Below, piece by piece: positions 12,686-60,512 of a stretch of DNA of 64,000 nucleotides. The notes below the pieces were generated by a model, which was not told the origin of the DNA, ran no database searches, and saw only the letters and a list, made by a program, of their open reading frames with translations. Location of the stretch: positions 4,780 through 68,779 of the forward strand of contig JBMFUY010000001.1 of assembly GCA_049966275.1 (NCBI GenBank), given 5' to 3'. The position numbers and the translations under genes are program-made. How positions within the stretch are numbered: the first letter of the stretch is position 1; every line of letters starts with the position of its first letter. The DNA is from a bacterium (lineage in GTDB: Bacteria > JAMCPX01).

Positions 12686-12944
12686 ACTTTATTCTCCAAT
12701 CTATTCTGTCTTTCTATGAAAATTTTAAAACCAATTGCCTGATAAGTCAATAGGTATGGATGGCTGATGGATCAACATTATACAGAGTAAACAGAATGAA
12801 TTCTGTATCTTTGGTATGGACTCCTATACCCCCTGTTGCTTAAAATTGAAAAGTGCACACCCAAGGGTTATATTCTGAAACCAAAAAGGAGGCTTTAGAT
12901 TATTACTCAAATACACAAAAAATTTATGGAAAGAGCTGATGATC

Positions 12945-13213
12945 TTAACCCGAAAAATGCAATAGGAAAGTTTGCTCATTCGTTCGGGGTACCCATCCAA
13001 AGGATGGGTCGTGCGATCCACCTAAGATACAAAGACTTTTTGCTGTAAAGGAGGTTTAAGTCCTTTGTATGTTTATATGCAATCACATTCCGTTTCTTTT
13101 TTTCTAATATTCGAAGAATACCTATATTTGACGCGTGACCCTTCCCTTCGGGTGGGTACCCCATCACTCATTACACAAACTTCCCTATTTCGCAAATGCA
13201 TTTTTCGGGTTAA
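12945..13213 (+). mobile_element. MITE-like element, long (269-bp) form, copy 1
   Basis: Termini TTAACCCGAAAAATGCA...TGCATTTTTCGGGTTAA (17-bp terminal inverted repeats), flanked by TTAA. Near-identical copies at 28485..28710 and 44321..44589; the 100-bp core is shared with 37706..37808 and 60411..60512. Confidence 0.8.
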
Positions 13214-27610: not shown

Positions 27611-28567
27611 ATGATACAAACCAAACATGTTGAGAATGTACATCTACCACATGGCCTTAAAAAACATATTAGTTTAAGTGGGGAGGTGCACAGAACAAAG
27701 GTAGTTCTGCGGGCAAACAGGATCCACACAGTGTGTGAATCAGCCCGTTGTCCCAATATCAGCGAATGCTTTGGTATGCATCGCGCAACATTTATGATCA
27801 TGGGAGATATATGTACAAGGGCATGCAGGTTCTGTTCTATTGATAAAGGGCATCCAGCAAAGATTGATCCTGAGGAGCCTTACAGAATAGCTAAGAGTGT
27901 TGCTGAGCTTGGCATAATGCATGCTGTTATAACATCTGTTACCAGAGATGATCTTAATGATGGTGGTGCAGACCACTTTTATAGAACAGTGTGCGTTGTT
28001 AAAGAACTTAATCCAGATGTCACTGTAGAGCTGCTAACCCCGGACTTTAAGGGTAACAGGGACGCGATTATGCATCTACTTGAGGCTGATTTTGAGATAT
28101 TTAATCACAATGTGGAGACTGTACCACGCCTATACAGGGGAATAAGGCCCCAGGCTTTGTATGAACGTTCCATTGAAGTGCTTGGTTTTGTAAAACGTCA
28201 GAAGCGCATCATCATTAAGTCAGGATTAATGGTTGGGCTTGGAGAAACCATGGAAGAGGTAAAGGCTGTACTCAGGGATTTAAAGGAAGTGGGATGTGAT
28301 ATTGTTACCATAGGTCAGTATCTTATGCCAACATCACAGAATATACCGGTTCAGGCATATATAACTCAAGAATTGTATGATGAGTACGAGAGATTCGGTA
28401 GAGAAATTGGCATCCCATTTGTTTATGCCGGTCCTTTTATCAGAAGTTCATACCATGCGCAGGAGATTATGAATAAATTAGTCATTAACCCGAAAAATGC
28501 AATAGGGAAGTTTGCTCATTCGTTCAACCCTGCGATCCACCTAAGATACAAAGACTTTTTGCTGTAA
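27611..28567 (+). CDS. lipA: Lipoyl synthase; the last ~28 codons and the stop are supplied by an inserted MITE
   Basis: Radical-SAM CxxxCxxC (CTRACRFC) plus N-terminal Cys cluster (CESARCPNISEC) and SSYHA motif. The ORF runs into repeat copy 28485..28710 (…MNKLV|INPKNAIGKFAHSFNPAIHLRYKDFLL*). Confidence 0.9.
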   Translation: MIQTKHVENVHLPHGLKKHISLSGEVHRTKVVLRANRIHTVCESARCPNISECFGMHRATFMIMGDICTRACRFCSIDKGHPAKIDPEEPYRIAKSVAELGIMHAVITSVTRDDLNDGGADHFYRTVCVVKELNPDVTVELLTPDFKGNRDAIMHLLEADFEIFNHNVETVPRLYRGIRPQALYERSIEVLGFVKRQKRIIIKSGLMVGLGETMEEVKAVLRDLKEVGCDIVTIGQYLMPTSQNIPVQAYITQELYDEYERFGREIGIPFVYAGPFIRSSYHAQEIMNKLVINPKNAIGKFAHSFNPAIHLRYKDFLL

Positions 28568-28710
28568 AGGAGGCTTAAGTCCTTTGTATGTTTATATGCA
28601 ATCACATTCCGTTTCTTTTTTTCTAATATTCGAAGAATACCTATATTTGACGCGGGGTTATCACTCATTACACAAACTTCCCTATTTCGCAAACGCATTT
28701 TTCGGGTTAA
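28485..28710 (+). mobile_element. MITE-like element, 226-bp form (long form with two internal deletions), copy 2, inserted in the 3' end of lipA
   Basis: Same TTAACCCGAAAAATGCA / TGCATTTTTCGGGTTAA termini, flanked by TTAA. Removing the element and one TTAA restores an in-frame lipA ending …KLVINPQRA*. Confidence 0.8.
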
Positions 28711-28732
28711 CCCTCAAAGAGCATAGTTTGAA

Positions 28733-29812
28733 CTACCATTTTGTGATCATTATTACGATTATGGAAACACATAATGTTATTATGTTTGGTAACCATGCTG
28801 AAACTATGCCACTCAGTATACCCGAATTCCCGAGTGACATTGATAGAGCCATTACAATCCAGTAGCTGAATCCTATAGCAAGGGAAAGTCCGAACGCCAG
28901 CATAAAGCCGGATGTTCTTCTTTTCTTTAGAGAAAAAGGAATCACAAGCAATATTACAAATAAAGAGGATAATGGATAAGAAATCTTGGAATTAAGATCA
29001 ACATCATAAGGTGCGTATGTGTAACCTTCATCTTTTAGTTTCTTTATGTAAGCCTTTAGTTCCACGTAATTCATTTCATCAGGAGTTTTTCCTGTATGCT
29101 TTAGATCTGTTAGCATAAATGGTAAGGTCATATCAGTGGATTCAGTAAAATTATACCCTATCTGTTCACCATTTTTGAAATCTCTAATATACACACCCTC
29201 AGCCTTCCATACTCCATTGTCCCATTTCGCATCATTGATATCTGTTCTGCCTATGAGGTCATTGTTATAGAAGCTGTAAACGGTGATATCTTTAACTGTA
29301 TTTAGCCATGGTATAAACAATCCAACTCTGTACAGGTTACTGCCTGATTTGAACCATATATTATTAACTTTAAAATTGTTTGATAGGCTTAATTTTGTGT
29401 GATGGATCTCAGCATCAAGCAGTGCATTTTTTAAATTTGCCTCAGGAACAATGTATTCTCCTAACAAAAAATGTAATATGGATATGATAGCCACTATTAC
29501 AATGGCAGGTTTGACTATGTACATCGGGCTTACGCCGGTTGTTAATAAAGAACCTATTTCGTTGTTTCTTGACATAACAGTATAAACTATAACAACCGTA
29601 AGTAATGCTGCCATTGGGATTGTCTGGTATAAAATGGTTGGCACCTGGGTTGCATAAAACATTACAATTGTATTAATCGCCGGGTGCAAAGATATTACAT
29701 CCTTCAAGCTTTCGAAAATATTAACGATAATATAGAGCCCTGATAGTGCTATGATTGATATTAAGTAAACCTGGAGGAATTCATCTACAATATATCTTGT
29801 TATGATTTTCAT
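28733..29812 (-). CDS. lptG: LPS export ABC permease LptG (YjgP/YjgQ family)
   Basis: 359 aa YjgP/YjgQ-type permease with periplasmic beta-jellyroll insertion. It is the second of two overlapping paralogous genes. Confidence 0.75.
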   Translation of the reverse strand: MKIITRYIVDEFLQVYLISIIALSGLYIIVNIFESLKDVISLHPAINTIVMFYATQVPTILYQTIPMAALLTVVIVYTVMSRNNEIGSLLTTGVSPMYIVKPAIVIVAIISILHFLLGEYIVPEANLKNALLDAEIHHTKLSLSNNFKVNNIWFKSGSNLYRVGLFIPWLNTVKDITVYSFYNNDLIGRTDINDAKWDNGVWKAEGVYIRDFKNGEQIGYNFTESTDMTLPFMLTDLKHTGKTPDEMNYVELKAYIKKLKDEGYTYAPYDVDLNSKISYPLSSLFVILLVIPFSLKKRRTSGFMLAFGLSLAIGFSYWIVMALSMSLGNSGILSGIVSAWLPNIITLCVSIIVIMITKW

Positions 29813-37705: not shown

Positions 37706-37808
37706 TTAACCCGAAAAATGCAATAGGAAAGTTTGCTCATTCGTTCGGGGTACCCCATCACTCATTACACAAACTTCCCTATTTCGCAAATGCATTTTTT
37801 TGGGTTAA
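37706..37808 (+). mobile_element. MITE-like element, short (103-bp) near-palindromic core form, copy 3
   Basis: TTAACCCGAAAAATGCAATAGGAAAGTTTGCTCATTCGTTCGGGGTACCCCATCACTCATTACACAAACTTCCCTATTTCGCAAATGCATTTTTTTGGGTTAA; the two halves are imperfect inverted repeats. Confidence 0.8.
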
Positions 37809-44320: not shown

Positions 44321-44589
44321 TTAACCCCCAAAAAATGTAATGAGGAAATTTCTTTATTCACCCGGGGTACCCATGCAGAGCATGGATCGTGCGATCCAAT
44401 CGATAGCTATATGTTTCCTTATAGAAACGAGGTTTTAGTCCTTTGTATGTTTATATGCAATCACATTCCGTTCTTTTTTTCTAATATTCGAAGAATACCT
44501 ATATTTGACGCGTGACCCTTCCCTTCGGGTGGATACCCCATCACTCATTACACAAACTTCCCTATTTCGCAAATGCATTTTGGGGTTAA
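44321..44589 (+). mobile_element. MITE-like element, long (269-bp) form, copy 4, with a degenerate left terminus
   Basis: TTAACCCCCAAAAAATG…GCAAATGCATTTTGGGGTTAA; the internal ~170-bp module is shared with copies 1 and 2. The terminal TTAA supplies the stop codon of the adjacent minus-strand gene. Confidence 0.75.
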
Positions 44590-45248
44590 TGTTTGCCTGC
44601 CTCATTTACCCATTTCTGGATCGCATTGGTGTATACAAGTGCTGATGATGTTGAGATCGCTGTGTTGAGTATGGGTTGTTTTTCAAGCATGTATCTAATC
44701 AAGAAACTAAGTGAGCTTATATCAGTGTATACCCTGTAGAAACCAATGGTCTTTTTGCCATTATCTACAGGCAGGAATTTCCATGATCCTTCTACAGTTT
44801 TAAGATTACCAGCAACCCTTGTCCATGTAATACTGTCCGGAGGATTTAAAACATGTTTCAGTGTATAGTTTGCGTGTTCGGATAGAATAGAGAATTTAAA
44901 CTCAACTTTATAGTCTACGATCAGTACATTACCATTTTTCTGGACGACCTTTACACTTGTGGTTTGTGGTATATGCTTTGCATAATCATTGTAGTCTGAG
45001 ACTATAGAAAAAACCTCGTTTATGGGCGCATTGAACAATGTTATAACAGTAACAAACTGAGGCTTTCCAGGCACTTCTTTATCAATAGATACGAGCTGTT
45101 CATCCTTCAGAATACTTCCAAACAGGTTGGGCGATGTTAATGCCAGCTGCTCAAGGGCTGACATTTGCTGGGCATTTGTTATTCCCGGGAGCAATAAAAG
45201 AAATGTGATTGTTAAAATCACGTAAGCCATTTTGTGTTTGATAAGCAT
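44586..45248 (-). CDS. Secreted hypothetical protein, possibly SRPBCC/START-like fold
   Basis: 220 aa with signal peptide (MAYVILTITFLLLLPGITNA). The fold assignment is weak. Confidence 0.45.
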   Translation of the reverse strand: MLIKHKMAYVILTITFLLLLPGITNAQQMSALEQLALTSPNLFGSILKDEQLVSIDKEVPGKPQFVTVITLFNAPINEVFSIVSDYNDYAKHIPQTTSVKVVQKNGNVLIVDYKVEFKFSILSEHANYTLKHVLNPPDSITWTRVAGNLKTVEGSWKFLPVDNGKKTIGFYRVYTDISSLSFLIRYMLEKQPILNTAISTSSALVYTNAIQKWVNEAGKH

Positions 45249-59343: not shown

Positions 59344-60414
59344 ATGAATTATTTAGATTTTTACAAACTGAAAGAAGAACCCTTCTCAAGTGCACCGGAT
59401 ATTAAGTTTTATTATAACAGTGCTCAACACTCAAAAGCACTTGTAAGGTTGATGTACGCAATTGATTCAATGAAAGGTCTTGCACTATTAATAGGTGATA
59501 TTGGAACCGGAAAAACCACGCTTGCAAGACGCATGCTTGATAGCCTGCCTGAAGAAGAATATGAATCAGCATTACTTGTTATTATCCATTCCGGAATCAC
59601 AGCTGACTGGCTTCTCAAAAAGATAGCAATGCAGCTTGGTATTGCTGAGCCTTCTGAAAACAAGATCACACTCTTATCACAACTGTATGAGCGATTGAAT
59701 GAATTGTATGAACAGCATAAAAAGGCAGTGGTCTTAATAGATGAAGCGCAGATGTTAAAAACAAAAGAGATGATGGAGGAATTTAGAGGGTTATTGAATT
59801 TAGAAGCCCCTGATAGAAAGTTGATCACCTTTGTGTTTTTTGGTTTACCAGAGATAGAAGAAAATTTACTGCTTGATAGTCCACTTGCCCAGCGGGTAGC
59901 ACTTAAATATAGATTGGAATCTTTAAACTATGAGTCCACAGAGGCTTACATAAAACACAGATTAGGGCTCGCGGGGAACAAGGATGAAATATTCACACCT
60001 GATGCTATTGAGAAGATCCATAAGTATTCAAAAGGCATACCAAGGATGATCAATATCATATCCTCAAATGCCTTATTTGAAGGGTTTCTTGTTAAGGCTA
60101 AGGTTATAGATGGTAAGATTATAGATAGTGTTGCTGCAGATTTAGGCGTAACAGGAGAACAGATAGAAAAAAGAGAAGCGCAGGTGAATGAAGAGATCAA
60201 AGAACAACCCATTGTTGAACCTACCAGACAGGTTACGCAGGAGCCTGTTAATGAAAGGGTAAAACAAACACAGGCAAAAGCATCAACAATACCATCCCCT
60301 CCACCAAAATCTGAGGTGACAGCTCCAAAACCTCCTGAAACAAAGCCAAAACAACAGAAACAGGAAGAGGATGAAATTGATTCTATCCTTGATAAGCTTG
60401 AAAAAGGCGGTTAA
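59344..60414 (+). CDS. ExeA/GspA/MshM-like AAA ATPase
   Basis: 356 aa; Walker A GDIGTGKTTLARRM, Walker B VVLIDEAQ; Pro/Lys-rich C-terminal tail. The TAA stop lies inside the TTAA terminus of the adjacent MITE. Confidence 0.75.
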   Translation: MNYLDFYKLKEEPFSSAPDIKFYYNSAQHSKALVRLMYAIDSMKGLALLIGDIGTGKTTLARRMLDSLPEEEYESALLVIIHSGITADWLLKKIAMQLGIAEPSENKITLLSQLYERLNELYEQHKKAVVLIDEAQMLKTKEMMEEFRGLLNLEAPDRKLITFVFFGLPEIEENLLLDSPLAQRVALKYRLESLNYESTEAYIKHRLGLAGNKDEIFTPDAIEKIHKYSKGIPRMINIISSNALFEGFLVKAKVIDGKIIDSVAADLGVTGEQIEKREAQVNEEIKEQPIVEPTRQVTQEPVNERVKQTQAKASTIPSPPPKSEVTAPKPPETKPKQQKQEEDEIDSILDKLEKGG

Positions 60415-60512
60415 CCCCAAAAATGCGTTTGCGAAATAGGGAAGTTTGTGTAATGAGTGATGGGGTACCTCGAACGAATGAGCAAACTTTCCTATTGCAT
60501 TTTTTGGGTTAA
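60411..60512 (-). mobile_element. MITE-like element, short (102-bp) core form, copy 5, inverted orientation
   Basis: Reverse complement matches copy 3 almost base for base; TTAACCCCAAAAATGC…GCATTTTTTGGGTTAA. Confidence 0.8.

What the first reader, a model, noticed from the sequence alone, without database searches (positions are those of the whole stretch)
28485..28710. MITE insertion rewrites the 3' end of lipA
The lipoyl synthase ORF runs through the conserved SSYHA region and then straight into the repeat. Its last ~28 residues (…INPKNAIGKFAHSFNPAIHLRYKDFLL*) and its stop codon are encoded by the element; the same peptide is encoded by copy 1 in an intergenic region.

Removing the element together with one TTAA gives a clean native end, …KLVINPQRA*. 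This supports TTAA as a target-site duplication and the insertion as recent. It is an essential radical-SAM enzyme carrying a transposon-derived C-terminal tail.
Basis: seen in the sequence. Interest (0 to 1): 0.6.

Follow-up and report, generated by a model that had tools for sequence, protein, structure and literature searches.

The report
Small transposon rewrites lipA gene end
A 222-bp non-coding mobile element has landed four codons before the end of the lipoyl synthase gene in an uncultured bacterium, swapping the enzyme's last 4 residues for 25 element-encoded ones beyond the conserved fold; small bacterial transposons are already known to do this.

Summary
lipA (27611-28567, +) runs into a repeat at 28485-28710, and its stop codon lies inside that repeat. 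The repeat is a MITE, a small non-autonomous transposon. It has imperfect terminal inverted repeats of about 25-40 bp, flanking TTAA and no transposase. The window holds five copies, and diverged relatives occur in other metagenomes.

Removing 28489-28710 restores a 297-aa LipA ending ...NKLVINPQRA*, 6 bp from the convergent lptG stop. The restored junction aligns colinearly with the closest element-free relative (76% identity, same gene order). Nineteen orthologues (61-76% identity) end 2-22 residues after the conserved AQE and none has the tail.

Six MAG assemblies carry the same junction, and two of them cross the whole element, so it is not an assembly artefact.

- The element supplies 25 new residues, not about 28.
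- Copy 1 encodes a variant of the peptide, not the same one.
- "Recent" and "essential" are not established.

All catalytic motifs are intact. The tail starts after the last predicted helix and is modelled with low confidence.

MITE-derived C-termini are documented (Coxiella QMITE, Correia, RU-3, Rickettsia RPE). This is a new member of a known kind, of low to moderate interest. The transposase is unidentified. The TTAA target and CCC...GGG ends resemble piggyBac/IS1380.

The parts
27611..28567 (+). lipA (lipoyl synthase) ORF as it now stands, 318 aa. Residues 1-293 are native; residues 294-318 and the stop come from the element.
   Evidence: ORF list. Pfam Radical_SAM and LIAS_N. PDB LipA chains match at E 1e-76 to 1e-78 over residues 7-291. 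The motifs C42/C47/C53, C68/C72/C75 and R278-S-S-Y281 fall in invariant alignment columns.
28485..28488 (.). Left TTAA: the original target site, and the left copy of the target-site duplication. It spans codons I292/N293.
   Evidence: Sequence. All full copies carry a flanking TTAA or a near variant. A TTCA/TTCA-flanked copy is at L009 4188-4413.
28489..28706 (+). Body of the MITE (218 bp, CCCG...CGGG), lipA-type 226-bp subfamily. Modules: outer left arm 28489-28525; inner inverted pair AACCCTGCG (28526-28534) and CGCGGGGTT (28651-28659); about 116 bp of core between them; outer right arm 28660-28706.
   Evidence: Inverted repeats. Alignment of copies, A2. Module printout. RNA fold -70 kcal/mol, z = -7.9. 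No Rfam match.
28490..28567 (+). Element-encoded part of the lipA reading frame: PKNAIGKFAHSFNPAIHLRYKDFLL plus stop TAA (28565-28567).
   Evidence: Translation. The same tail, with an A/T variant, is in six MAG proteins. AF2 pLDDT is below 50 for residues 291-318.
28707..28710 (.). Right TTAA, the duplicated copy of the target.
28711..28726 (+). Orphaned native 3' end of lipA: CC CTC AAA GAG CAT AG. With the preceding AA this reads ...N P Q R A *, with the native stop TAG at 28724-28726.
   Evidence: Reconstruction and translation. Colinear alignment with the L002 lipA/lptG junction.
28733..29812 (-). Convergent lptG-like gene (LptF_LptG family). Its stop is 6 bp from the native lipA stop and it is untouched by the insertion.
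   Evidence: Same arrangement in L001 and L002.
12945..13213 (+). Copy 1: 269-bp long form, lying between divergent genes (M48 peptidase, ABC permease). It contains a 40-aa ORF that NCBI annotates as a hypothetical protein.
37706..37808 (+). Copy 3: 103-bp short form (outer arms only, central GGGGTACCCC). Intergenic, upstream of mnmE.
44321..44589 (+). Copy 5: 269-bp long form with a diverged left half (68% over the first 50 nt) and a right half 99% identical to copy 1. The stop codon of the minus-strand ORF 44586-45248 lies in its right TTAA.
60411..60512 (-). Copy 4: 102-bp short form. The stop codon (60412-60414) of the AAA_22 ATPase ORF 59344-60414 lies in its flanking TTAA.

Best explanation
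A non-autonomous cut-and-paste transposon (a MITE) was moved by a transposase encoded elsewhere in the genome and inserted at the sequence TTAA, four codons before the lipA stop codon. The TTAA was duplicated on insertion.

This TTAA is out of frame (A-TTA-AC), so translation now reads through the left arm of the element for 25 codons until an element-borne TAA. The native last four codons (PQRA) and the native stop are stranded downstream.

The insertion falls after the last helix of the LipA fold and after every catalytic motif. The enzyme is therefore most likely still active, with a tolerated and probably disordered tail. That would explain why the allele is the only one seen in the population.

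Shown: the element, its family, the duplicated flank, the restored reading frame, absence of the tail from orthologues, and presence in six assemblies.

Inferred: transposase-mediated mobility, retained enzyme activity and neutrality of the tail.
For: **Repeat family.**
- Five copies lie in 64 kb, against 0 expected by chance.
- Further copies occur in the same population (L009, L010; proteins P0127-P0131).
- Relatives 86-92% identical occur in other MAGs and metagenomes (L004-L008, L012).

**Transposon anatomy.**
- Terminal inverted repeats and a long hairpin fold.
- No ORF resembling a transposase.
- Flanking TTAA at almost all copies, and one 226-bp copy with a TTCA/TTCA direct duplication.

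**Empty site.**
- Excision restores a 297-aa LipA ending 6 bp from the lptG stop.
- The syntenic relative L002 has a 291-aa LipA ending 10 bp from lptG and no element. The two junctions align colinearly.

**Orthologues.** Nineteen relatives end 2-22 residues after the conserved AQE, and none carries the tail.

**Not an artefact.**
- Six MAG proteins carry the tail.
- The contigs of the window and of L001 both span the whole element with both native flanks.

**Tolerance.**
- The cysteine motifs and RSSY are intact.
- Alignments to solved LipA structures end at residues 286-291.
- In the AF2 model the last helix is 279-292 and pLDDT is below 50 for 291-318.

**Precedent.** In Coxiella, QMITE insertions sit at the 3' ends of all affected functional genes, and EnhC gains 33 C-terminal residues from QMITE2 (PMC5896051).
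Against: - No autonomous partner element or transposase was found in about 160 kb of sequence in hand, so mobility is inferred from structure and distribution alone.
- No orthologous empty site from the same species is available. The nearest element-free relative is 76% identical and does not have TTAA at the homologous position.
- Enzyme activity with the tail is untested.
- The long stem that includes the last 79 coding bases could affect mRNA processing or translation.
- The low AF2 confidence in the tail partly reflects the absence of homologous rows in the alignment for that segment.
Confidence: 0.9

Rival explanations
1. Assembly artefact: the contig was mis-joined across a repeated element, so lipA does not really run into the element in any cell.
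For: The element is a multi-copy repeat. Four of six MAG assemblies break inside it, giving 'partial' proteins of 309-317 aa. Between two MAGs, 3 of the 14 SNPs in 20 kb fall inside the 226-bp element, which would fit reads from paralogous copies being mixed in the consensus.
Against: Both flanks belong to one locus. The sequence right of the element carries the in-frame native lipA end followed by lptG, exactly as in the syntenic relative. Two independent assemblies cross the element. All six read from lipA into the left arm. The 90% identity cluster contains no tail-less allele.
Confidence: 0.03
2. The insertion inactivates or strongly down-regulates lipA. The tail would destabilise the enzyme, or the roughly 30-bp stem formed by the coding left arm and the 3' right arm would be cut by RNase III, leaving a non-stop mRNA. 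The organism would then rely on lipoate salvage or on another copy of the gene.
For: The stem is very stable (-70 kcal/mol, z = -7.9) and includes the last 79 coding bases. The same idea was proposed for the QMITE2-extended enhC (PMC5896051). Whether a second lipA or an lplA exists could not be checked.
Against: The ORF is intact with all catalytic motifs in six MAGs. The insertion lies beyond the conserved fold. LipA C-termini vary naturally in length by about 20 residues. No degradation of the gene is visible, although the MAGs are too similar for that to carry much weight.
Confidence: 0.12
3. The repeat is a structured RNA gene or a REP/BIME-like regulatory palindrome that spreads by other means, not a transposon-derived MITE.
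For: It folds into a long hairpin, sits next to gene ends, and no transposase partner was found.
Against: There is no Rfam match at the gathering or E<=1 thresholds. Copies have defined ends with flanking 4-bp duplications, including a non-palindromic TTCA pair. They occur in both orientations and in unrelated contexts. At 102-332 bp with 25-40 bp inverted termini, the size fits MITEs and not the roughly 35-bp REPs.
Confidence: 0.04
4. The tail is ancestral and the dispersed repeats derive from the lipA 3' end.
For: None beyond the shared sequence.
Against: Orthologues lack the tail. A complete, in-frame native end survives downstream of the element. The shared sequence has inverted termini and target duplications at every locus.
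Confidence: 0.01

Closest known systems
Coxiella burnetii QMITE1 / QMITE2 (Wachter et al. 2018, PMC5896051)
   Same: Both are bacterial MITEs with terminal inverted repeats and a stable hairpin. Their overlaps with functional genes all fall at the 3' ends and replace the last residues without much change in protein size. In strain Dugway, EnhC takes its C-terminal 33 residues from QMITE2, much as the LipA tail arises here.
   Different: There is no sequence relationship and the host lineage is different. QMITE2 has a different flank at each copy, whereas this family is almost always flanked by TTAA.
Rickettsia palindromic elements (RPE) and the Correia/NEMIS 107-bp and enterobacterial RU-3 fusions (PMC10969869, PMC2229807)
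   Same: These are small palindromic mobile repeats that become part of protein-coding genes and add element-encoded peptide to otherwise conserved enzymes.
   Different: RPEs are open throughout and insert in frame inside genes. The lipA copy instead carries a stop after 25 codons and replaces the C-terminus. The 102-bp short form here is also 34 codons long and open in one frame, but no protein with such an internal insertion was found.
piggyBac superfamily (eukaryotes) and its prokaryotic relatives, the IS1380 family
   Same: The target or flank is TTAA, and the element termini are CCC...GGG, as in canonical piggyBac (PMC10140906). From my own recollection of the ISfinder family table, IS1380 elements give 4-5 bp duplications and have CC ends.
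   Different: No transposase is known for this family, so any relationship rests on the termini and the target alone. IS5-group elements (4-bp YTAR targets) or IS630/Tc1-mariner elements (TA within T-TA-A) could give the same flanks. There is no similarity to piggyBac terminal repeats beyond CCC.

Membership tests
MITE (miniature inverted-repeat transposable element) | Small size (roughly 50-500 bp) with terminal inverted repeats | tested here: met
   Copies are 102-332 bp. Arms pair over 25 nt at 84% plus a perfect 14-nt pair. The whole element folds as a hairpin.
MITE (miniature inverted-repeat transposable element) | Multiple dispersed copies in unrelated genomic contexts | tested here: met
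   Five copies lie in the 64-kb window in both orientations. Others are on further contigs of the same population and in other metagenomes.
MITE (miniature inverted-repeat transposable element) | Flanking target-site duplication | tested here: met
   TTAA flanks both ends of nearly all copies. Because TTAA is palindromic this is ambiguous on its own, but one copy is flanked by the direct repeat TTCA/TTCA. Removing the element and one TTAA restores the lipA frame.
MITE (miniature inverted-repeat transposable element) | No transposase gene of its own | tested here: met
   The longest ORFs inside copies are 40-90 aa, with stops in most frames. Database matches to the tail-frame peptide are all hypothetical ORFs of 38-67 aa.
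MITE (miniature inverted-repeat transposable element) | A cognate autonomous IS with matching termini | tested here: inconclusive
   None was seen in the window or in loci L001-L012. There was no match in the plasmid, phage or IMG/VR collections. A whole-genome search was not possible.
IS1380 / piggyBac-like non-autonomous element | TTAA target with 4-bp duplication and CC(C)...(G)GG termini | tested here: met
   A 2-bp duplication within T-NN-A cannot be excluded on sequence alone.
IS1380 / piggyBac-like non-autonomous element | Mobilised by a DDD/DDE transposase of that family with the same termini | not testable with these tools
   No transposase candidate could be retrieved from the source genome.
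Lipoyl synthase LipA (radical SAM) | CX3CX2C radical-SAM motif, N-terminal CX4CX5C auxiliary-cluster motif and C-terminal RSSY motif | tested here: met
   C68/C72/C75, C42/C47/C53 and R278-S279-S280-Y281 fall in invariant alignment columns. Pfam finds Radical_SAM and LIAS_N. PDB LipA chains match at E about 1e-77.

The most novel reading that the evidence does not exclude
This repeat family could be the non-autonomous partner of a bacterial TTAA-specific transposon with CCC...GGG ends, that is, a piggyBac/IS1380-like element. It may still be active in an uncultured lineage whose relatives come from hot-spring metagenomes.

The short form adds exactly 34 codons and is open in one frame, so it could also insert in frame inside genes as Rickettsia RPEs do.

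If the partner transposase exists and excises as precisely as piggyBac does, it would be a prokaryotic, possibly thermostable, TTAA-specific system.
Probability: 0.2. Interest if true: 0.5.

Novelty: new member of a known kind. Interest (0 to 1): 0.25.

Why it matters
This is a clean natural example of a small transposon remodelling the C-terminus of a conserved metabolic enzyme without touching its catalytic core.

It has a practical side for annotation. The 318-aa "lipoyl synthase" in the public MAG records carries 25 residues of transposon origin. The same element also produces spurious 38-67 aa "hypothetical proteins" and breaks contigs in four of six assemblies.

The family appears to be undescribed, and its TTAA target with CCC...GGG ends gives a concrete lead for finding its transposase. 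The phenomenon itself, a MITE at a gene's 3' end supplying a new tail, is already documented in Coxiella, Neisseria, enterobacteria and Rickettsia, so it does not change current understanding.

Tried and rejected
**Searches that led nowhere**
- Rfam: no match on the whole window at gathering thresholds, nor on 28400-28800 at E<=1.
- Promoter and terminator consensus scan of 28300-28900: nothing above the shuffled expectation, and no intrinsic terminator in the element.
No per-genome census was possible.
- Metagenome scan: five loci with diverged copies, none next to a transposase.
- blastn of copy 1 against the plasmid and phage collections, and a pattern scan of IMG/VR: no match.
- Tail-peptide profile search: only seven tiny hypothetical ORFs. 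It did not return LipA itself, so the word index is not exhaustive and the result is not a census.
- Exhaustive phmmer of the 34-aa open frame of the short form against 1.84 billion representatives: no hits, so no evidence for in-frame internal insertions.
- Three contig look-ups for small MITE ORFs were not on record.
- Taxonomy from ValRS and LipA neighbours: only "bacterium" or "Deltaproteobacteria bacterium" labels for close hits. Named hits at 54-57% identity are Thermodesulfobacteriota or Nitrospirota, so no firm placement.

**Idea tested and dropped**
- Copies seemed to seek out stop codons, because in 4 of about 10 copies a neighbouring gene's stop codon lies in the flanking TTAA. About 20% of tolerated TTAA sites in this compact window (5.9% intergenic) overlap stop codons anyway. 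The excess is not significant (P about 0.13).

Full report
**What is in the sequence**

The ORF at 27611-28567 (+) encodes a 318-aa lipoyl synthase. Pfam finds Radical_SAM and LIAS_N, and solved LipA structures match at E about 1e-77. All motifs that define the enzyme fall in invariant columns of an alignment with 20 homologues: CX4CX5C (C42/C47/C53), CX3CX2C (C68/C72/C75) and RSSY (R278-Y281).

From 28485 the ORF enters a 226-bp palindromic repeat that ends at 28710. The repeat has these features:
- It starts and ends with TTAA.
- Its arms pair over 25 nt at 84%, and a further 14 nt pair perfectly.
- It folds as one long hairpin, -70 kcal/mol against -39 for shuffles, z = -7.9.

The lipA stop codon, TAA at 28565-28567, lies inside the repeat.

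**The repeat is a real, dispersed family**

A 26-nt probe from the left arm finds four sites in the window, where shuffles give none. blastn finds a fifth copy. The copies are:

| Copy | Coordinates | Form |
|---|---|---|
| 1 | 12945-13213 | 269-bp long form |
| 2 | 28485-28710 | 226-bp lipA copy |
| 3 | 37706-37808 | 103-bp short form |
| 5 | 44321-44589 | 269 bp, left half diverged |
| 4 | 60411-60512 (minus strand) | 102-bp short form |

No other interspersed repeat family is present in the window.

The architecture is modular:
- The short form is just the two outer arms around a central GGGGTACCCC.
- The long forms carry about 165 bp more at that palindrome, bounded by GGGTACCC on both sides. 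This fits either a second small element nested in the first, or a deletion between those 8-bp repeats.
- The lipA copy belongs to a 226-bp subfamily with a shorter inner junction (AACCCTGCG ... CGCGGGGTT).

The 226-bp subfamily exists at other loci in the same population. A copy at L009 4188-4413 is 98.2% identical to the lipA copy of the same MAG. The subfamily-specific peptide SFNPTIHL also turns up in three small ORFs elsewhere.

**The 4-bp flank is duplicated target**

TTAA is palindromic, so TTAA at both ends could in principle be part of the inverted repeat. The copy at L009 4188-4413 settles this. It is flanked by TTCA on both sides, which is a direct repeat and not an inverted one.

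Sequence alone cannot distinguish a 4-bp duplication around an element CCCG...CGGG from a 2-bp duplication within T-NN-A around an element ACCCG...CGGGT. Both predict the same empty site.

**The empty site and the native end of LipA**

Deleting 28489-28710 and keeping one TTAA gives a 297-aa LipA that ends ...NKLVINPQRA*. Its TAG stop at 28724-28726 is 6 bp from the stop of the convergent lptG-like gene at 28733-28735.

The closest LipA outside this population is P0002 (76% identity, 291 aa). It lies on a contig with the same gene order: cation-efflux gene, lipA, then lptG, lptF and dcd on the opposite strand, and so on. It has no element, and lipA ends 10 bp from lptG. The reconstructed empty site aligns colinearly with that junction.

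Nineteen relatives at 61-76% identity end 2-22 residues after the conserved AQE. None has anything resembling the tail.

**It is not an assembly artefact**

The exact 318-aa protein is in NCBI as "MAG: lipoyl synthase [bacterium]". Its 90% identity cluster holds six MAG proteins, and all six run into the element. Four are "partial" because the contig breaks inside the repeat.

A second MAG (GCA_049968555.1, locus L001) spans the whole element with both native flanks. That MAG is 99.93% identical to the window over 20,180 bp. The shared insertion therefore shows it is real and fixed among the available assemblies, but says little about its age.

Three of the 14 differences between the two MAGs fall inside the 226-bp element. 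This is most simply explained by paralogous reads or by gene conversion among copies.

- The element supplies 25 new residues (P294-L318) in place of four native ones, a net gain of 21. It does not supply about 28.
- Copy 1 encodes a variant of the peptide with a 9-residue substitution, not the same peptide. NCBI annotates it as a 40-aa hypothetical protein.
- "Recent" is only loosely supported. Copies of the subfamily differ by 1-3%. The insertion post-dates the split from a relative with 76% LipA identity.
- "Essential" was not tested. I could not check the genome for lipoate salvage genes or a second lipA.

**Likely consequence for the enzyme**

Alignments to solved LipA structures end at query residues 286-291. 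An AlphaFold2 model built on the 21-sequence alignment has mean pLDDT 80. Its last helix is at 279-292, and pLDDT is below 50 for 291-318. The low confidence partly reflects the lack of homologues for the tail.

Natural LipA C-termini vary by about 20 residues in length. The most likely outcome is an active enzyme with a tolerated, floppy tail.

One untested alternative is that the stem formed by the coding left arm and the 3' right arm is processed, which would lower expression. The authors of the Coxiella study proposed the same for the QMITE2-extended enhC (PMC5896051).

**Why copies sit at gene ends**

In four other copies the stop codon of a neighbouring gene lies inside the flanking TTAA:
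- ORF 59344-60414 (window)
- ORF 44586-45248 (window)
- L005 3380-5746
- the GT2 gene in L012

In those cases the target duplication preserves the stop codon and the protein is unchanged.

I tested whether this reflects targeting. Only 5.9% of the window is intergenic, and about 20% of the TTAA sites where an insertion would leave proteins intact overlap a stop codon. Four of ten is therefore not a significant excess (P about 0.13). The lipA case is a near miss of the same kind: an out-of-frame TTAA four codons upstream of the stop.

**Distribution and host**

Diverged relatives (86-92% identity) occur in two JGI metagenomes, one GenBank metagenome contig and another MAG, GCA_039793605.1. A short-form copy lies on a small contig from a Kamchatka sample.

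Nothing matched in the plasmid, phage or IMG/VR collections, and there is no Rfam family.

The host is an uncultured diderm (it has LptF/G) at 38% G+C. Its close relatives carry no informative taxon label ("bacterium" or "Deltaproteobacteria bacterium"). Hits with a specific taxon name reach only 54-57% ValRS identity (Thermodesulfobacteriota, Nitrospirota).

**The transposase**

None was found near any copy. TTAA flanks with CCC...GGG termini are the hallmark of piggyBac, whose prokaryotic relatives are the IS1380 family (PMC10140906). The 4-5 bp duplications and CC ends of IS1380 are from my own recollection of ISfinder. IS5-group or IS630-type enzymes remain possible. This is a lead, not a classification.

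**Comparison with what is known, and verdict**

Bacterial MITEs fused to the 3' ends of genes are well documented:
- Coxiella QMITE1 and QMITE2: every affected functional gene is hit at its 3' end, and EnhC gains 33 residues (PMC5896051).
- The Correia 107-bp form and enterobacterial RU-3 at the C-terminus of LivJ (PMC2229807).
- In-frame RPEs in Rickettsia (PMC10969869).

The element meets every structural criterion for a MITE except an identified autonomous partner. The finding is correct and tidy, but it is a new member of a known kind. I score interest at 0.25.

The short form is exactly 34 codons long and open in one frame, so in-frame internal insertions are conceivable. An exhaustive search found none.

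Noticed in passing
window 60411-60414, 44586-44589; L005 3380-3383; L012 1636-1639: The stop codons of four unrelated genes (an AAA_22 ATPase, a polyketide-cyclase-like protein, a Ser/Thr kinase-like ORF and a GT2 glycosyltransferase) lie inside the TTAA that flanks a MITE copy. The element sits exactly at the end of the coding sequence without changing the protein. A TTAA census shows this is about what a compact genome would give (P about 0.13).
   Followed up: yes
window 28531, 28532, 28610 versus L001: Two MAGs that are 99.93% identical over 20 kb differ at 14 positions, and 3 of those fall inside the 226-bp lipA MITE, roughly 24 times the background density. One of them changes the tail (A to T). 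The window's variant matches the sequence of copy 1, which suggests gene conversion among copies or mixed reads in the consensus.
   Followed up: partly
L009 9710-10134 and L010 1080-1505: A second repeat of about 420 bp is nearly identical at two loci with different upstream genes, in two MAGs. It contains a pair of inverted CTGTCCA-AATAAT motifs around a 42-44 aa minus-strand ORF, plus a plus-strand ORF (MNQELANVIKIY...) that is itself interrupted by a 226-type MITE at a TTAA. Both contigs end inside the MITE. It may be the end of another mobile element. It is not present in the window.
   Followed up: partly
L006 1520-1585 (minus strand): A left-arm fragment of the MITE with no right arm is embedded in the 5' end of an ORF (MAWNQDFANQKNAIGKFAHSLNTWLKHGFW...). 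A decayed copy may be contributing the N-terminal coding sequence of a gene in a related organism.
   Followed up: no
window 44321-44589; L012 1636-1893: Copy 5 is a mosaic. Its right half is 99% identical to copy 1, but its first 50 nt are only 68% identical. L012, from another MAG, has the same kind of middle segment (GATCCAA..GATAGCTA...CCTTATAGAAACGAGGTTTTAG). This suggests recombination between subfamilies.
   Followed up: partly
window 37706-37808, 60411-60512; L003 117-218: The canonical short form adds exactly 102 bp (34 codons) including the duplicated TTAA. It is open in the same phase as the lipA tail (NPKNAIGKFAHSFGVPHHSLHKLPYFANAF...), so it could in principle insert in frame as Rickettsia RPEs do. 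No such protein was found in 1.84 billion representatives.
   Followed up: yes
window 12926-13048; proteins P0126-P0132: Public MAG annotations-67 aa 'hypothetical proteins' that are simply the open frame of MITE copies. The element also breaks contigs in four of the six assemblies that cover lipA.
   Followed up: yes
L003 (JBNAUV010000026.1): A 97% identical short-form copy lies on a 2.5-kb contig binned as Minisyncoccales (a candidate-phyla-radiation lineage), next to a DNA methyltransferase-like ORF and a 210-aa ORF. This is probably a binning error, not transfer between phyla.
   Followed up: no
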